DNA of 62,756 nucleotides, filler included, from Hausera hauseri (Eukaryota), in assembly GCA_046269625.1 (NCBI GenBank). It is 13 parts of 13 records of this genome, joined end to end, with 100 filler letters (N's around TTAATTAATTAA, not from the genome) between each part and the next. Parts side by side here need not be neighbours in the genome. Positions count along the whole stretch, not along the records: positions 23,549 to 29,318 come from JBJURY010191749.1; positions 29,419 to 35,001 come from JBJURY010226297.1; 11 more parts are not named here. One strand, given 5' to 3'. The notes beneath the pieces were generated by a model that saw nothing but the letters and a program-made list of their open reading frames with translations, had not been told where the DNA came from and made no database searches. This document shows, piece by piece, positions 27,114 through 35,001 of the stretch. Positions within the stretch are counted from its first letter, which is position 1. Each line of letters begins with the position of its first letter. Both the position numbers and the translations under genes were made by a program.

Positions 27114-27223
27114 TGTGGTGCCCAAGGCGTCCGGTGCCCTCTGGTCTATTTAGTTGGACACGGCCGGGAGTCCGCCACCGCCGCGTCGGGCCCATAGGCG
27201 GGCCCCGATCTTCCGCCTAGAAA
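27114..27223 (+). mobile_element. 110-bp GC-rich head element, copy 1
   Basis: Ungapped 91/110 match to 32341-32450. Starts TGTGG exactly where pPolB (..IYED) breaks off. Contains the hairpin TCGGGCCC-ATAGGC-GGGCCCCGA. Confidence 0.9.
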
Positions 27224-27230
27224 TCATGAC

Positions 27231-28924
27231 ATGAAGTTAATTCTACTTTCGTTGTTGGTCATTGCTTGTAACGCAACTGATTTAGATGGCCTTCGTAGTC
27301 CGGATTTTTGGTGTAAAAATGTTAAAAATGCTCAGAAATGTGGTCGACATGAAAGCAAAAATAACCAACACCCAATGTGATGTTTGCGTTAAAATTGTCA
27401 AAATTTTCCAACAGAAATCTGCGATAAAAGTTTCCAAGCAAGACTTTTTAAACTTCCTCAACGGTCATATTTGTGCGAAAATCAGTTCGGATTGTGTTCG
27501 TGCTACTTGTAAAATGTTTGTTAGCACATACGGTGCTATGGCGAACGAATTGGTTACATCAGAAAGTCCACAGGATTTGTGTTCAATGATTTCGGTCTGT
27601 CCGCATAAGGCAAATAACATTTTGATGAATAAATTGAGATTTATTCGAGCTGACTCCAAACATGTGTCATGTGCAAAAAAGTGTTCTCAATTCTTCACGA
27701 GCTTGTTTCCGAAATTCCAATTGACCTCGTTAAATCTTTTCTGAAATCAGAAGTTTGTAGCACGTTACCGGCTCCATTAAAGGACACCTGCAATACGTTG
27801 GTGGATGGATACGTTCATAATTTGTTCCAGCTCGTTCTGTCTTTACTGCATAGTGCCCACAAGCAACACAACCAAAACGAACAGCAAACAATTGGGAATT
27901 TCATTTGTGTCTCGATGGGATTCCAATTTCGAAAAAGGATCTGGCCGGTGTTTCTACGGCAGAAATTGATTCCGTTCTCGACGATGAAATTTGTTCACAT
28001 GTTTCCGCCCTCTTTCGAGGAACCCGTGATGTATAGTCAACAGCTGCGTACAGAATTTTTTAAATCAACTAAATACAATGACCACAAATCAATTCTGTAC
28101 ACAAAATAACCTCTGTCAATCTCAAAGACATAATTGGTTAAAGGTCCAACGTTCAAAATAGAAATTCGGTTCCATCGAATCTGAGGCATGTAAAATCATT
28201 ATAACCGAAATCAAGAAATTCATATCTGATTCCAATAACCAGAATAATATCAAGTACTTTTTAAAGAACAAAATATGCCCATTTTTCCGTTCTGAAGCTG
28301 CAAAATGTCAACAATTATTGGATGAATTTTATACCATTGTTCTCAACACGATTATTGCCGAACTCGATGGTTATAAAATCTGTAGTCTACTTCATTACGT
28401 ACACAGACATCTGAGAAACTGACAACTGTCCAATTTGACGTTTGTGAGATCCTTATTCAACAGATGGTTAATTTGGTATTTACTGATTCCAATGCCCAAC
28501 AGTTGGCTAGTGTTATTGAAACGAAGATTTGTCCCCATATTAAGATTGTCAAATCTGAGTACATTTATTTGGCTAAGACGTATGTGCCAGAGATCATCAA
28601 ACTTGTTCGACAAATTATAAATAGCAAATTGGTCTGTTCTAAATTGCATCTTTGCACTCTACTGTCGACAAAAAACATTAATTTCTTGTTCGAAAACACC
28701 AATCTCCCATTTCACAAATGTGAAAACTGTCAACTGATCATCAATGAAACCAAAATACTCCTCCATGATTTTAACTTCAACGACGTCATTGAAACTCTTA
28801 TTAAAAATTGATTTGCACGTTATTAGGCAAAAATGAACAAGCGTGCGTTAAAGATATTGATGAATATTACTCTGCTGTCGTGATGATGATTAATCAGATT
28901 CTCACACCAGCTTTCTGTATATAG
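27231..28924 (+). pseudogene. PSAP: Prosaposin-like intronless (processed) pseudogene
   Basis: Signal peptide MKLILLSLLVIACNA, SapA motif PDFWCKNVKNAQKC, then about 6 saposin-B Cys patterns (CDVC...IC...TC...PQDLCSMISVC; CVMC...VCSTLPAPLKDTC; ICPFF...KC...ICSLL; CENC...IC...AC). Frameshifts, no evident introns, AATAAA near 28962. Confidence 0.85.
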
Positions 28925-31635: not shown

Positions 31636-31785
31636 TTGGTGTGGCTAGGATTTGGCTTGGTGTGGCTAGGGTTTAGCATGTTTTGGGTTGTTTTAGCTTG
31701 GTGTGATTAGTGTGTAGCTTTGTTTGGCTTTGTTTAGCTAGGTGTGGCTAGTGTTTAGCTTTGTTTGGCTTAGTGTAGCTTGGAT
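31636..31785. repeat. About 20-bp tandem repeat (TTAGCTTGGTGTGGCTAGTG-like)
   Basis: About 7 degenerate units. Confidence 0.8.
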
Positions 31786-32038
31786 TTCCCTATTTCTACC
31801 TTAGGGATCAAGTGCTTTTAGGTGCATTTATGTTTCCCTCCCATCGATTACCTTTATATGTGTATTGTTTTCTTAATGTGTGATTATGTAGTAGTATATT
31901 TAAACATAACGCCGTGTCTAGTGTGGAAAATAACGGAAATTGAACGTATTTGCTTATAGGCCTAACTAACAAAAACAACATAATGCAGATTTAAACATTT
32001 ATTAATACAACATATACAAATAAATCGAAATATTTACA

Positions 32039-35001
32039 ATTAAATACAATAATGCCCATAAGCAACTGATCTGTTTTTCTCAATCCACTGTCATTTGTCA
32101 TCGAATGGATCCAATGCTTTCAACGGCCCGATGTACATTCTCAACTACAGAACCTAACTCGATGTACAACTGTAAGAGCCGATAGTGAACAACATAGTTT
32201 GATTTACGTTCATGTGTCAGCAATAATTTCTTAACTTTTGAAACAGGAGGAAATATATTAATTGGAGCTAGAGACAGTTGGTCCAACTTATCATGTTTGT
32301 CAGCAGGAATGCTTAAGTCAACTTCAAAGGCTAAGCCTCGTGTGGTGCCCACAGTGGCCAGTGCTCTATGGCCCAATTGGTTGGACATGGCCGGGCGCCC
32401 GCCAACGCCGCGTCGGGCCCATAGGCAGGCCCCGATCTCCCTCCTCGAAAGTGTCTCAGATTGCTGAGAAAATTTCCACTCTTTCAAGTGTTCTGGAAAG
32501 TATCATATTCCTGATGATTTGCCGGATGGTGCCACCTCGACTAATGTCGATTCTACCACAATGGCTATCAGACAGACTCAAAATTGCAATCTGCAAAATT
32601 ACATTTGTACATTGTCAAACAGTCTTTCATCTAATCTTTTACACGGACTTCCTTCAGTTTTGTCAAATAGCTCGAACTTCTCCAATCTCTCACTTCTAAC
32701 TTCCAATATTATTGATCAGACAACAAATAATGTCCTTATAGGACATTATAGCCTCATCTTCCCCTCGAGAAAAAACGTCGGAAGCGGTACATTTGGGACG
32801 AAGAAGTTAAGTCCAACATGGATCAGTTGTCAGAGGGAAGCAAGTTGAGCACTCATGTTAGTCCATAAATTATCATACCGAACTCAGGATTTTATGGTAC
32901 TAATTATTACTAGTAATTGCAATTTTGTGAATATTCATGCAGAAAGATGGTCACTCTTTTGATACGTCAGAAATACTTTGTGTACATAACGTGTATTTTG
33001 ATCGGCTAGTTAGTTAATTATCTGTGACATTATTGTAATCGACGTATCCTTTGACACAAACGTTGTTGACGGATATACTTATTTACGGCATGTTTTATCA
33101 AATATATCAATTATTTTCTATATTACATTGCTGGTTGCGGGTTGAATGATTGCATAGCCTCTATCAACAAATTTGTAGTACTGTATATTATTTTTTTGTT
33201 TGTTTTAATAATGAAAAAAATAAAGATTTAACCATTTTGATTTGTGAATTGATTTAATTGATATCCAAGAATTTACTGTTCAGTTGTGAATTTTCGTATT
33301 GCATCTACTATTTCAATTCGAGTTTCCTGCCTTTTGGGATTTTGGAATTTTATTTTAATCACAATTCTTTTGAATTCTAAATTTATCGTTGGTCGGATTG
33401 AATTCATACAACCACCTGTCATTTGTGATAATAACGGATTAACTATATCTCGTTTTTCCTTAACACAGTCAATAAAAGGTAATTGTTGGATCAGACTAGT
33501 CAAAACTTCCTCATCGTAAATCCAAGTCAGATTCGCAAATGGCAGAGGTTGTGATAAATCCCAACCGTACAAATTATTTACATCTATGTACAAGAGACTG
33601 GTGCTCTCATCAGCGGTAACCCTATGCTTATTTACAAAAGTCATACCGCCGCGAATTCCTGATCGAAAGAAATTGTATATCTCAGGATCCTGAATGAGCT
33701 CAATCTTACAGTGACTGGATTTCAGTGCAGTTGCCCAAGATAAACCGGGAATTGAAAGGAAATTAACCGCCTCTAAACCATCCTGCAACTTAATCTCCTT
33801 TCTAAACCGTTCAAAGATATCGCCAAACAAGTATACGTCGAGCATCATGTATACCAACATATAATCTAAAAGACAACTATAACTGTATTTCAACCAAGCC
33901 GTTTGTGCTTCCTGATAATCACTATCACTAAAACCATCTCATTTCGATGGCAACTCCTTAATAGACTACAAGTCACTAAACGATTTGGCTGCAGTATATG
34001 GAAAAATACCTTTTCCCTTAATAATGTCAGAAGGAAAAGCCGACTCAGTAAAGGGATAGCTATCTAAGTTGGAAGCCAAAGTCTTAAGTGAAGCCCGATA
34101 GAAACTGCAACGAGTCGAGAAATCGAATAGATACCGACTTTTTGTATGAACACTGTACATTTGCCTGCATGGTTAAAAATTTCTCTGTTGTTTGAGGAAT
34201 AGCACTCAAATTCCAAGTAGCAAATTTACTTAGTGCGTGTTTTAAAATATGATGGAGATCGCAGCCACGCAAATTATGGAAAATAACGGGAAAATTTATG
34301 CCTCATCTGTCTAGCCAAGTTACACTTATTACATGCTGGGTCTAAGAATTTACCTGTAACATGACAGTGATCTATAACAAATTGTGAACCGTTTTCGTGG
34401 CAAAGATAACATGATGTAGCATTTTTAAACCAATACTATTTAGCTGAATTTCACGGTGTTATCGGTTTTTTAGCATTGTCATACCATGGAAAAACTAGGG
34501 TTTTAATAATTTCCTCTAATAAATCCAAGAACTCAACTATTGAATTTTCACCAACAAATTGTCGATATTCAATACCGGTTGATGAAACTAACAATAGACC
34601 AGCTGCAGCAGGCAAATGAATATTCTTGACTTTATCGTTAGGACACAGAACAGATTCAAAGTCAGCATATACGACGAAAGGAGGAGTTATTGATTTTGCC
34701 CAGTCCTTAAACTCACAAAACGTATTTTCTGTCATTTTATACAAAGTCATACATTTGACAGAAGAATTGAACATGGGTAAATGCTTAAAATATCCCGTAT
34801 TATACTTAAAGTCATGTAAACATTTTTTACACCAATGTTTACATTGGATTCTGAGTTTATTACTGTCCAAAATAAATATATATACTCTCGCCCAAAAATG
34901 TATGGTAAATCACCACCATATTGCGGTCTGCTATACAAATGTATTATTTCATGTTGAGCCATTTTCTTTGAAAATGTAAAGTTAAAATTGACTTTGGACC
35001 A
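32039..35001 (-). mobile_element. Maverick/Polinton pPolB pseudogene (family B), split by a 1.1-kb insertion and internally deleted
   Basis: YADFES, DHCH, FHNLRGCDLHHI, FLDS, KGIFPY, GIRGG, IDVNNLYG, FEVDL, NYVVHYRLLQ, then a jump to the C-terminal ALDPFDDK...AYGH. The frame VKEK|RGLA is restored when 32341-33452 is removed. Confidence 0.92.
32341..33447 (+). mobile_element. Discrete insertion: head element copy 2 (32341-32450) plus host-like 3' CDS and 3' UTR cargo
   Basis: Flanked by CCTCG (32336-32340) and TCTCG (33448-33452). Termini TGTGG...CTATA. Cargo includes PHLPLEKKRRKRYIWDEEV...stop, an AT-rich UTR and AATAAA near 33219. Confidence 0.85.

What the first reader, a model, noticed from the sequence alone, without database searches (positions are those of the whole stretch)
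27114..33452. Candidate mRNA-capturing mobile element: one 110-bp GC-rich head fused at a fixed GAAA boundary to different host-derived cargos
Seen: 27114-27223 and 32341-32450, on two unrelated contigs, align without gaps (19 mismatches in 110 bp). Both start with TGTGGTGCCC exactly at an insertion breakpoint and both lose similarity exactly after GAAA. The cargos are unrelated: an intronless prosaposin whose ATG is 7 nt after the head, and an apparent 3' coding end plus 3' UTR. No transposase or RT is encoded. Inference: a non-autonomous system that joins a constant 5' module to cellular transcripts and integrates the chimera. Two models fit. (a) The head is an LTR U3 and host cDNA replaces R-U5 through aberrant strand transfer. 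(b) The head is a small structured RNA joined by RT template switching, as in mammalian U6-mRNA chimeras.
Basis: partly seen in the sequence, partly recalled or inferred. Interest (0 to 1): 0.88.

Follow-up and report, generated by a model that had tools for sequence, protein, structure and literature searches.

The report
Short repeat fused to host retrocopies
In an animal genome, a repeated 110-base GC-rich sequence stops at one fixed base and is joined there to many unrelated sequences, among them an intron-free broken prosaposin copy; it is likely a small RNA that was fused to messenger RNAs and then reverse-transcribed into the genome, as happens with U6 RNA in mammals.

Summary
The two 110-bp heads align without gaps (19 mismatches, E 5e-28). 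Each sits exactly at the junction between a cut Polinton-type polB remnant and an unrelated cargo. A public run adds the key test. More than 100 contigs carry the head, and their summed depth is about 1000 times that of single exact-match contigs (rough; the tool says depth is no copy number). 54 contigs leave the reference right after GAAA into sequences about as unlike each other as random DNA (agreement 0.41; unrelated 0.37; polB continuations 0.72-0.90). So the 3' boundary is fixed and no single constant sequence dominates, which argues against the LTR-U3 model. Cargo 1 is a frameshifted, intron-free multi-saposin prosaposin copy. Cargo 2 has no homologue, so its mRNA origin is only inferred. 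Element 2 has a 4-bp flanking repeat and no poly(A). The head matches no Rfam family and has no stable fold. Best reading (0.45): U6/WEIRD-type chimeric retrocopies built on an unknown small RNA. Rivals: a long spliced leader or first exon (0.2), and a mostly stand-alone short repeat (0.2). Not shown: that the 54 continuations are mRNAs rather than flanks. No RNA run was listed.

The parts
27114..27223 (+). Head 1: 110-bp GC-rich repeat (67% GC), ending in GAAA
   Evidence: In run X1, 103-113 contigs carry variant bases inside it and 54 contigs have loose ends behind 27223.
27224..29015 (+). Cargo 1: decayed intron-free prosaposin copy (ATG 27231, SapA, four SapB stretches with Pfam hits and two more Cys-patterned stretches seen by eye, AATAAA at 28962, A-rich stretch about 28998-29015); the 3' end is approximate
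   Evidence: Pfam SapA E 4e-6; SapB_2 E 1e-5 and 4e-7, weaker SapB hits E 0.01-0.06; saposin C 1m12 E 4e-6; frames; X1 cover fades within 28984-29067.
24808..27113 (+). Target 1: broken Polinton-type polB remnant, cut at 27113; its right arm is not in the contig
   Evidence: Pfam; tblastn; 137 X1 contigs run on behind 27114 with agreement 0.82, read as family members without the insert.
32341..32450 (+). Head 2: 110-bp repeat, 82.7% identical to head 1; agrees with the X1 majority at both listed variant places inside the head
32451..33448 (+). Cargo 2: about 420 bp at 39% GC with a 126-codon open frame, then about 580 bp at 29% GC with AATAAA at 33219; no poly(A); no homologue; mRNA origin inferred
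   Evidence: negative searches.
32337..32340 (+). Left copy of the 4-bp direct repeat CTCG (candidate target-site duplication)
33449..33452 (+). Right copy of the 4-bp direct repeat CTCG, followed by a run of five T
   Evidence: chance 0.005 for one fixed register, higher when the register is free.
32083..34831 (-). Target 2: broken Polinton-type polB remnant interrupted by element 2; the two arms are colinear
   Evidence: Against the remnant of contig 6, adjacent blocks are 40 nt apart there and 1170 nt apart here; Pfam.

Best explanation
The head is a repeated 110-base sequence with a fixed 3' end, joined there to unrelated sequences, and it is likely the full-length copy of a small non-coding RNA that was fused to messenger RNAs at the RNA or cDNA stage and then inserted as one unit by a borrowed non-LTR reverse transcriptase. 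Shown: repeat nature, fixed 3' boundary, diverse continuations, an intron-free prosaposin cargo in sense orientation, and element 2 as one block between colinear target flanks. Inferred: (1) the head exists as an abundant free RNA of about 110 nt; (2) an RT primed at a genomic nick copies an mRNA and, at or before its 5' end, jumps onto the 3' end of that RNA, or the two RNAs are ligated first, as RtcB does for U6; (3) integration leaves a very short duplication, with priming inside the 3' UTR or later loss of the poly(A). The inserts encode no RT, so the enzyme would come in trans. Landing in polB remnants needs no targeting: these remnants are in 4 of 13 contigs of the window and have summed depths of 1.5e5-3.4e5 in X1.
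For: Fixed junction with diverse 3' partners: 54 X1 contigs have loose ends behind 27223 at agreement 0.41, against 0.374 +- 0.011 (maximum 0.404 of 500) simulated for 54 unrelated 30-mers and 0.72-0.90 for the five polB rows of X1. Both window copies (2 of 2) sit at a target/cargo junction with the same 5' and 3' head ends. Cargo 1 is a sense, intron-free, decayed prosaposin. One X1 contig joins the head (to 27218) to the prosaposin at 27411, so head and prosaposin occur together in a second form. The head is also in run X3 of another study (13-14 contigs). The anatomy matches the listed features of chimeric retrogenes: full-length 5' RNA, variable 3' partner, same orientation (PMC2104539). 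The 5' partner can be an RNA of unknown function with no solo copy found (WEIRD), and U6 fuses to cellular mRNAs (PMC6789731; PMC4476161).
Against: The repeat of element 2 is 4 (or 5) bp, not the 10-20 bp or 6-19 bp of LINE-made chimeras, and may be chance or microhomology. Element 2 has no poly(A) and ends about 225 nt past its AATAAA. The head has no Rfam match, no B box and no fold better than shuffles; it ends in AAA, not in a run of T. In known systems the 3' partner is mostly the LINE itself, whereas neither cargo here shows RT homology. Diverse loose ends are equally expected from stand-alone copies in diverse flanks; only 18 of 379 loose-end rows were shown, and none was for the 5' edge. 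Cargo 2 has no homologue. The 27218-27411 joint is a single contig and lies at a 7-bp repeat shared with the first junction, so it may be a later deletion. Contig 6 ends in foreign DNA, so this assembly does contain at least one suspect join.
Confidence: 0.45

Rival explanations
1. The head is a 5' exon, either an unusually long trans-spliced leader or the first exon of a mobile element with its own promoter. It is spliced from a donor after GAAA onto acceptors of many host pre-mRNAs, and the tagged mRNAs are then retroposed, as with SL-tagged retrogenes of dinoflagellates.
For: Base-exact 3' boundary and diverse partners. The prosaposin starts 7 nt before its ATG, where leader acceptors commonly lie (established knowledge; copepod 5' UTRs after the SL average 17-24 nt). 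Cargo 2 can also be read as a whole small mRNA, since its open frame holds an ATG. Depth rises from 9423 at 27152 to 15435 at 27202, as 5' truncation would give. SL-tagged retrogenes exist (PMC6050394 abstract).
Against: Known leaders are usually 15-50 nt (PMC4664967), while this is 110 nt and 67% GC. Head 2 holds two ATGs. GAAA is a weak exon end. No dominant donor-type continuation shows among the 54 loose ends, although a few source loci would be outvoted. The depth gradient may only reflect head 1's divergence in its first 40 bases (18 of 29 identical at positions 12-40).
Confidence: 0.2
2. The head is a stand-alone SINE- or MITE-like repeat of about 110 bp with a short A end. The diverse loose ends are ordinary flanks, and the two window copies are a minority of chimeras or co-insertions.
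For: High copy number and 17% divergence between copies. Near-random loose ends are what flanks would give. A contig reaching 39 letters back from 27152 fits a sharp 5' edge as well. One A-box-like motif lies in head 2.
Against: 2 of 2 copies in the window sit exactly between a cut target and a cargo, and in neither does the target resume after GAAA. No B box, no tRNA, no Rfam match, no terminal inverted repeat.
Confidence: 0.2
3. The head is the fixed start of a one-ended, DNA-level mobile element (Helitron/Helentron-like rolling circle, or a Pack-type end) that carries along whatever lies downstream of the donor copy.
For: Conserved start, variable end and no poly(A). Element 2 can be read as an insertion between two T, the Helentron preference (PMC4067079). 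Other intron-free genes lie in the window, so an intron-free cargo need not be a cDNA.
Against: No 5'-TC, 3'-CTRR or A|T site; no subterminal inverted repeats or 3' palindrome in element 2; a 4-bp direct repeat is not expected; a junction 7 nt before an ATG is unlikely for DNA capture.
Confidence: 0.08
4. The head is an LTR U3, or an LTR piece, and host cDNA replaced the rest through aberrant strand transfer.
For: It starts with TG, the candidate duplication is 4-5 bp, there is no poly(A), and LTR-made retrocopies lack L1 hallmarks (PMC5131818). LTR-element pieces occur in the window.
Against: LTR-made retrocopies are flanked by LTR-element sequence, but element 2 has no second head, no inverted end and no CA end. 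Intact elements should give a constant continuation, and agreement is 0.41. The head does not resemble the LTR-like stretch at 31051-31350 (883 and 943 of 1000 shuffles score as high).
Confidence: 0.04
5. The junctions are assembly or library chimeras.
For: Contig 6 ends in DNA (29094-29318) with zero depth in X1 but held by long contigs of X2 and X3. X1 may be the source of the window. No listed piece bridges 27223/27224 (24 of 8033 pieces shown).
Against: Random chimeras do not break at one base in 54 contigs. The colinear polB arms around element 2, a second head-prosaposin joint, and the head in a second study argue for real DNA. Copies differ by 17%, so the head is no adapter.
Confidence: 0.03

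Closest known systems
U6/L1 and U6/mRNA chimeric retrogenes of mammals (PMC4476161, PMC6789731; passages seen)
   Same: A full-length 5' module of about 110 nt, a fixed junction at its 3' end, variable sense 3' partners including cellular mRNAs, inserted as one unit.
   Different: The head is not U6 or any Rfam RNA, ends in AAA instead of T4-8 and is GC-rich; the flanking repeat is 4-5 bp instead of 6-19 bp; element 2 has no poly(A); neither cargo is a LINE; the host is an invertebrate.
MINE (WEIRD-MGL) chimeras of Magnaporthe grisea (PMC2104539; parts 1-2 of 5 read)
   Same: The 5' part is a constant RNA copy of unknown function with no homologue elsewhere, and no solo copy was found there.
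   Different: WEIRD is 1.1 kb, with 33 bipartite chimeras whose partners are a LINE or SINE and repeats of 10-20 bp; here the head is 110 bp, on more than 100 contigs, with at least one host-gene partner.
SL-tagged retrogenes of dinoflagellates (PMC6050394; abstract and outline seen)
   Same: A constant 5' tag in front of intron-free gene copies in genomic DNA, joined close to the start codon.
   Different: The tag is 22 nt there and leaders are usually 15-50 nt; no SL RNA gene, acceptor or tagged mRNA could be tested here.
LTR-mediated retrocopies (PMC5131818; passages seen)
   Same: No poly(A) at the cargo end; a retro-element-like piece abuts an mRNA copy.
   Different: There LTR-element sequence flanks the retrocopy and switch points vary with microsimilarity; here only a 5' module is present and its end is fixed.
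Helentrons/HINEs (PMC4067079; passages seen)
   Same: Non-coding, can carry gene fragments, insertion at TT is compatible with element 2.
   Different: No subterminal inverted repeats and no 3' palindrome here.

Membership tests
LINE-made chimeric retrogene (U6/WEIRD type) | 5' part is a full-length copy of a cellular RNA | tested here: inconclusive
   Same two ends in 2 of 2 copies and a fixed 3' end in 54 contigs; no RNA run was listed, so the free RNA is unseen.
LINE-made chimeric retrogene (U6/WEIRD type) | 3' partner differs between copies and is joined directly in the same orientation | tested here: met
   Sense prosaposin at 27224; unrelated cargo 2 (its orientation is inferred); diverse loose ends.
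LINE-made chimeric retrogene (U6/WEIRD type) | 3' partner is a spliced transcript or retro-element RNA, 5'-truncated at variable places | tested here: inconclusive
   The prosaposin copy has no gap over about 130 nt between coding stretches, but the parent gene was not seen; cargo 2 is unidentified; the nature of the 54 continuations is unknown.
LINE-made chimeric retrogene (U6/WEIRD type) | Whole chimera flanked by a direct repeat of about 6-20 bp | tested here: not met
   Element 2 has only 4 (or 5) bp; the right end of element 1 is not held.
LINE-made chimeric retrogene (U6/WEIRD type) | 3' poly(A) or A-rich tail | tested here: inconclusive
   Absent in element 2; an A-rich stretch lies about 30 nt after AATAAA in element 1.
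U6 chimera in the strict sense | Head is U6/U6atac or another known snRNA and ends in T4-8 | tested here: not met
   No Rfam hit at gathering score in the window or over either head at E up to 10, apart from two chance matches on head 2.
Spliced-leader retrogene | Leader of about 15-50 nt | tested here: not met
   110 nt against the range in PMC4664967.
Spliced-leader retrogene | Junction at an AG acceptor of the parent; SL RNA gene with GT donor and Sm site; leader on mature mRNAs | not testable with these tools
   No genome held; no RNA run listed; loose ends at the cargo start not among the rows shown.
LTR-mediated retrocopy | LTR-element sequence flanks the cargo; TG...CA ends | tested here: not met
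   Element 2 has no second head, no inverted end and no CA end.
tRNA/5S/7SL-derived SINE | Internal polymerase III boxes or likeness to the parent RNA | tested here: not met
   A-box-like motif in 1 of 2 heads, B box in 0 of 2; ARAGORN none; Rfam none.
Helitron/Helentron | 5'-TC, 3'-CTRR and A|T site; or subterminal inverted repeats with a 3' palindrome | tested here: not met
   definitions. Only a T|T reading of the site of element 2 is compatible.
Retrozyme / ribozyme-bearing element | Hammerhead core or HDV-like fold | tested here: inconclusive
   No hammerhead core and no hit of my own crude HDV descriptor, run without a positive control, on 2 heads x 2 strands; Rfam none.

The most novel reading that the evidence does not exclude
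An undescribed 110-nt GC-rich RNA is routinely attached to the 5' end of many different mRNAs in this fast-evolving animal, as a leader twice as long as known spliced leaders or by a dedicated ligation or template-jump route. About a thousand tagged mRNAs have been written back into the genome, making it an animal counterpart of dinoflagellate mRNA recycling and a built-in marker of every retroposition event.
Probability: 0.2. Interest if true: 0.88.

Novelty: new variant of a known kind. Interest (0 to 1): 0.58.

Why it matters
In the papers I saw, chimeric retrogenes with a constant small-RNA head are described in vertebrates (U6) and one fungus (WEIRD), mostly with a LINE as partner. A family with an unknown head, on the order of 10^3 copies, with host mRNAs as partners, would extend this route of gene duplication to an invertebrate lineage and point to an abundant RNA that is in no library. 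If the junctions are splice acceptors, it would be by far the longest leader on record and would tag retrogenes genome-wide. One census of head copies, plus one 5'-complete RNA library, decides between these readings. If the copies prove mostly solo, it is an ordinary new short repeat with a few chimeras.

Tried and rejected
No whole genome is held, so the genome-wide census could not be run. Pattern scans: metagenome contigs gave 2 loci, both read as chance matches in GC-rich bacterial-type DNA with no likeness beyond the core; viral contigs 0 in two scans; prokaryote genomes 0. No RNA holder was listed, which says nothing about expression. Runs X2 and X3 held small shares (0.06, 0.05) and were laid: X2 has no depth on the head. 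The X2 joint 27364-27610 (side 22 letters) was set aside as too short. Folding gave no signal: RNA z -0.64, +0.49, -0.20, -0.43; DNA z -0.29, -0.05; two-sequence consensus with 1 of 26 pairs changed on both sides. A likeness by eye between the head and the LTR-like stretch at 31051-31350 fell below shuffles. No shared 3' tail between the two cargos (208 of 300 shuffles as high). A 13-bp hairpin joining GAAA of head 2 to its cargo has no counterpart in element 1 and was dropped. Resemblances of the head's start to a tRNA primer-binding site or a Ginger-type end are recalled leads, untested, and lack the second end. Cargo 2: Pfam none, PDB best E 0.24, Atlas none, representative library 2 hits, both translations of tandem repeats. 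A full-length prosaposin relative was not found. Lineage: the window's glutamine synthetase is at most 68% identical to anything listed and is an unplaced long branch in a quick tree of 57 rows. Earlier findings of the scan: nothing. Literature searches listed no paper whose title or abstract start describes this element; the library lacks most subscription journals, and no supplements were read.

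
Full report
Setting. The window is 13 contigs of 4.0-5.8 kb joined by N-spacers. The proteins are of an animal: a glutamine synthetase with at most 68% identity to listed proteins, an unplaced long branch in a quick tree, and an amine-type GPCR. No whole genome is held. 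Polinton-type remnants lie in contigs 6, 7, 10 and 13 (polB, integrase and ATPase matches).

Observation. The heads at 27114-27223 and 32341-32450 align without gaps with 19 mismatches (E 5e-28, no third copy in the window). Likeness ends sharply on both sides (3 of 20 and 6 of 20). The differences cluster at positions 12-40 (18 of 29 identical), while positions 67-99 are 31 of 33 identical. Head 1 follows a polB remnant cut at 27113 on the same strand; head 2 interrupts a polB remnant on the opposite strand. Around element 2, two polB blocks that are 40 nt apart in the remnant of contig 6 are 1170 nt apart, which matches an insert of about 1.1 kb. A 4-bp repeat CTCG lies at 32337-32340 and 33449-33452. 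Its chance is 0.005 for one fixed register but higher because homology fixes the right edge only to a few codons, so it is suggestive, not proof. For element 1, the four bases left of the head recur only at 27782 and 29271, and no polB follows either.

Cargos. Cargo 1 reads as a signal-peptide-like start (by eye), SapA and a chain of saposin B domains (Pfam; saposin C, E 4e-6), with at least six frame changes and no gap over about 130 nt between coding stretches. It is a decayed, intron-free prosaposin copy. The parent gene was not seen, and other intron-free genes are in the window, so 'processed' is an inference. AATAAA lies at 28962 and an A-rich stretch about 30 nt later. Cargo 2 has a coding-like first part and a UTR-like rest with AATAAA at 33219, ends about 225 nt later without poly(A), and has no homologue.

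Read evidence. In X1 (7618 records laid), summed depth is 12571 in the bin inside the head, against 8.5 and 11.8 for the two contigs identical to the cargo; 103 and 113 contigs carry variant bases at two places in the head. The tool warns that depth is no copy number, so 'more than 100 contigs' is shown and 'order of 10^3 copies' is a rough inference. Behind 27223, exactly after GAAA, 54 contigs have loose ends with agreement 0.41. Unrelated 30-mers from the window give 0.374 +- 0.011 (real ends vary in length, so the small excess is not read), while the five polB rows of X1 give 0.72-0.90. Behind 27114, 137 contigs run on at agreement 0.82, which I read as Polinton family members without the insert. 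One contig joins the head (to 27218) to the prosaposin at 27411, where a 7-bp stretch repeats the first junction; this is either a deletion derivative or a second capture. Four to eight contigs with other letters cover parts of the cargo, so prosaposin-like sequence is itself multi-copy. At 27239 and 27246 a contig reaches back to 27187, 37 letters into the head's place, a hint of a bridging contig that table 8 does not list. X3, from another study, holds the head on 13-14 contigs; X2 does not. Limits: only 18 of 379 loose-end rows and 24 of 8033 pieces were shown; no row describes the 5' edge or the cargo start; X1 may be the source of the window. The last 225 bp of contig 6 have no depth in X1 but lie in contigs of 7277 and 4150 bp of X2 and X3 with 3 differences. 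They are CpG-poor and are likely foreign (host-like) DNA joined by the assembly, which hides the 3' end of element 1.

What the head is not. No Rfam family at gathering score and only chance matches at E up to 10; no tRNA; no B box, hammerhead core or hit of a crude HDV descriptor; no fold better than shuffles; no inverted or direct counterpart at the far end of element 2; no likeness to the neighbouring LTR-like stretch; no true match in the three public collections scanned.

Mechanism. A constant, apparently full-length 5' module, a base-exact junction, variable sense partners and insertion as one block are the listed marks of chimeric retrogenes (PMC2104539, parts 1-2 of 5). Their 5' part can be an RNA of unknown function, and they arise by RT template switching or by RtcB ligation before retrotransposition (PMC6789731 passages; PMC4476161 passages; PMC11838501 passages). 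I commit to this at 0.45. It works like a U6 chimera but is not filed as one: the head is not U6, the duplication is too short, and poly(A) is missing. Splicing of a long leader or element-derived first exon (0.2) explains the exact boundary and the 7-nt distance to the ATG, but known leaders are usually 15-50 nt (PMC4664967 passages; SL-tagged retrogenes, PMC6050394 abstract). A mostly stand-alone short repeat (0.2) explains the loose ends equally well, but not why 2 of 2 copies sit at target/cargo junctions. One-ended DNA capture (0.08) lacks Helitron and Helentron ends (PMC4067079 passages). The LTR-U3 model (0.04) needs flanking LTR sequence (PMC5131818 passages) and a constant continuation. 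An artefact (0.03) cannot give a fixed base in 54 contigs. Insertion in polB remnants needs no targeting, given their abundance and the different sites and orientations.

Novelty and verdict. Nine literature searches listed no description of this element; subscription journals and supplements were not seen. Earlier findings of the scan held nothing. The share of copies that carry mRNA, and how the junction is made, remain open and are directly testable. Interest 0.58; the boldest reading (a 110-nt tag routinely added to mRNAs and recycled into the genome) has probability 0.2 and would merit 0.88.

Noticed in passing
window 4463-9615: Contig 2 (28% GC) begins and ends with the same 77 bp (4463-4539 = 9539-9615), as a circle or tandem unit would, and carries an intact intron-free glutamine synthetase (5214-6305, minus) that is a long branch in a quick tree.
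   Followed up: partly
window 29094-29318: The end of contig 6 has no depth in run X1 but is held at about 99% by long contigs of runs X2 and X3; CpG-poor; likely foreign (host-like) DNA joined in the assembly.
   Followed up: partly
window 26800-27113 and contigs 6, 7, 10, 13: Polinton-type polB remnants are extremely abundant: summed depth 1.5e5-3.4e5 per bin and up to 7e5 at one place in X1, against about 10 for single contigs; several diverged families are in the window.
   Followed up: no
window 27224-28900: Prosaposin-like sequence is multi-copy in X1 (4-8 contigs with other letters at several places, depth up to 252 at 27524), and some copies are colinear with the cargo over 170-270 bp.
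   Followed up: partly
window 31080-31900: LTR-like stretch by eye (GC-rich part, AATAAA, a primer-site-like TGGCG near 31317) followed by a 21/41-bp imperfect tandem array at 31635-31783; it lies between an RCC1-like gene fragment (29806-30240, weak Pfam hits) and the polB remnant.
   Followed up: partly
window 35629-39866: About 4 kb of degenerate (TTCG/TTCC)n microsatellite filling most of contig 8.
   Followed up: no
window 40117-40648 and 42370-43838: Contig 9 is built of degenerate repeats of roughly 90-95 bp in two inverted blocks near its ends, possibly the termini of a large DNA element.
   Followed up: no
window 56835-58067 (minus) and 53794-55026 (minus): An intron-free 411-codon frame with only a weak CAP_N hit and no homologue among 8000 candidates; and an intron-free amine-type GPCR.
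   Followed up: partly
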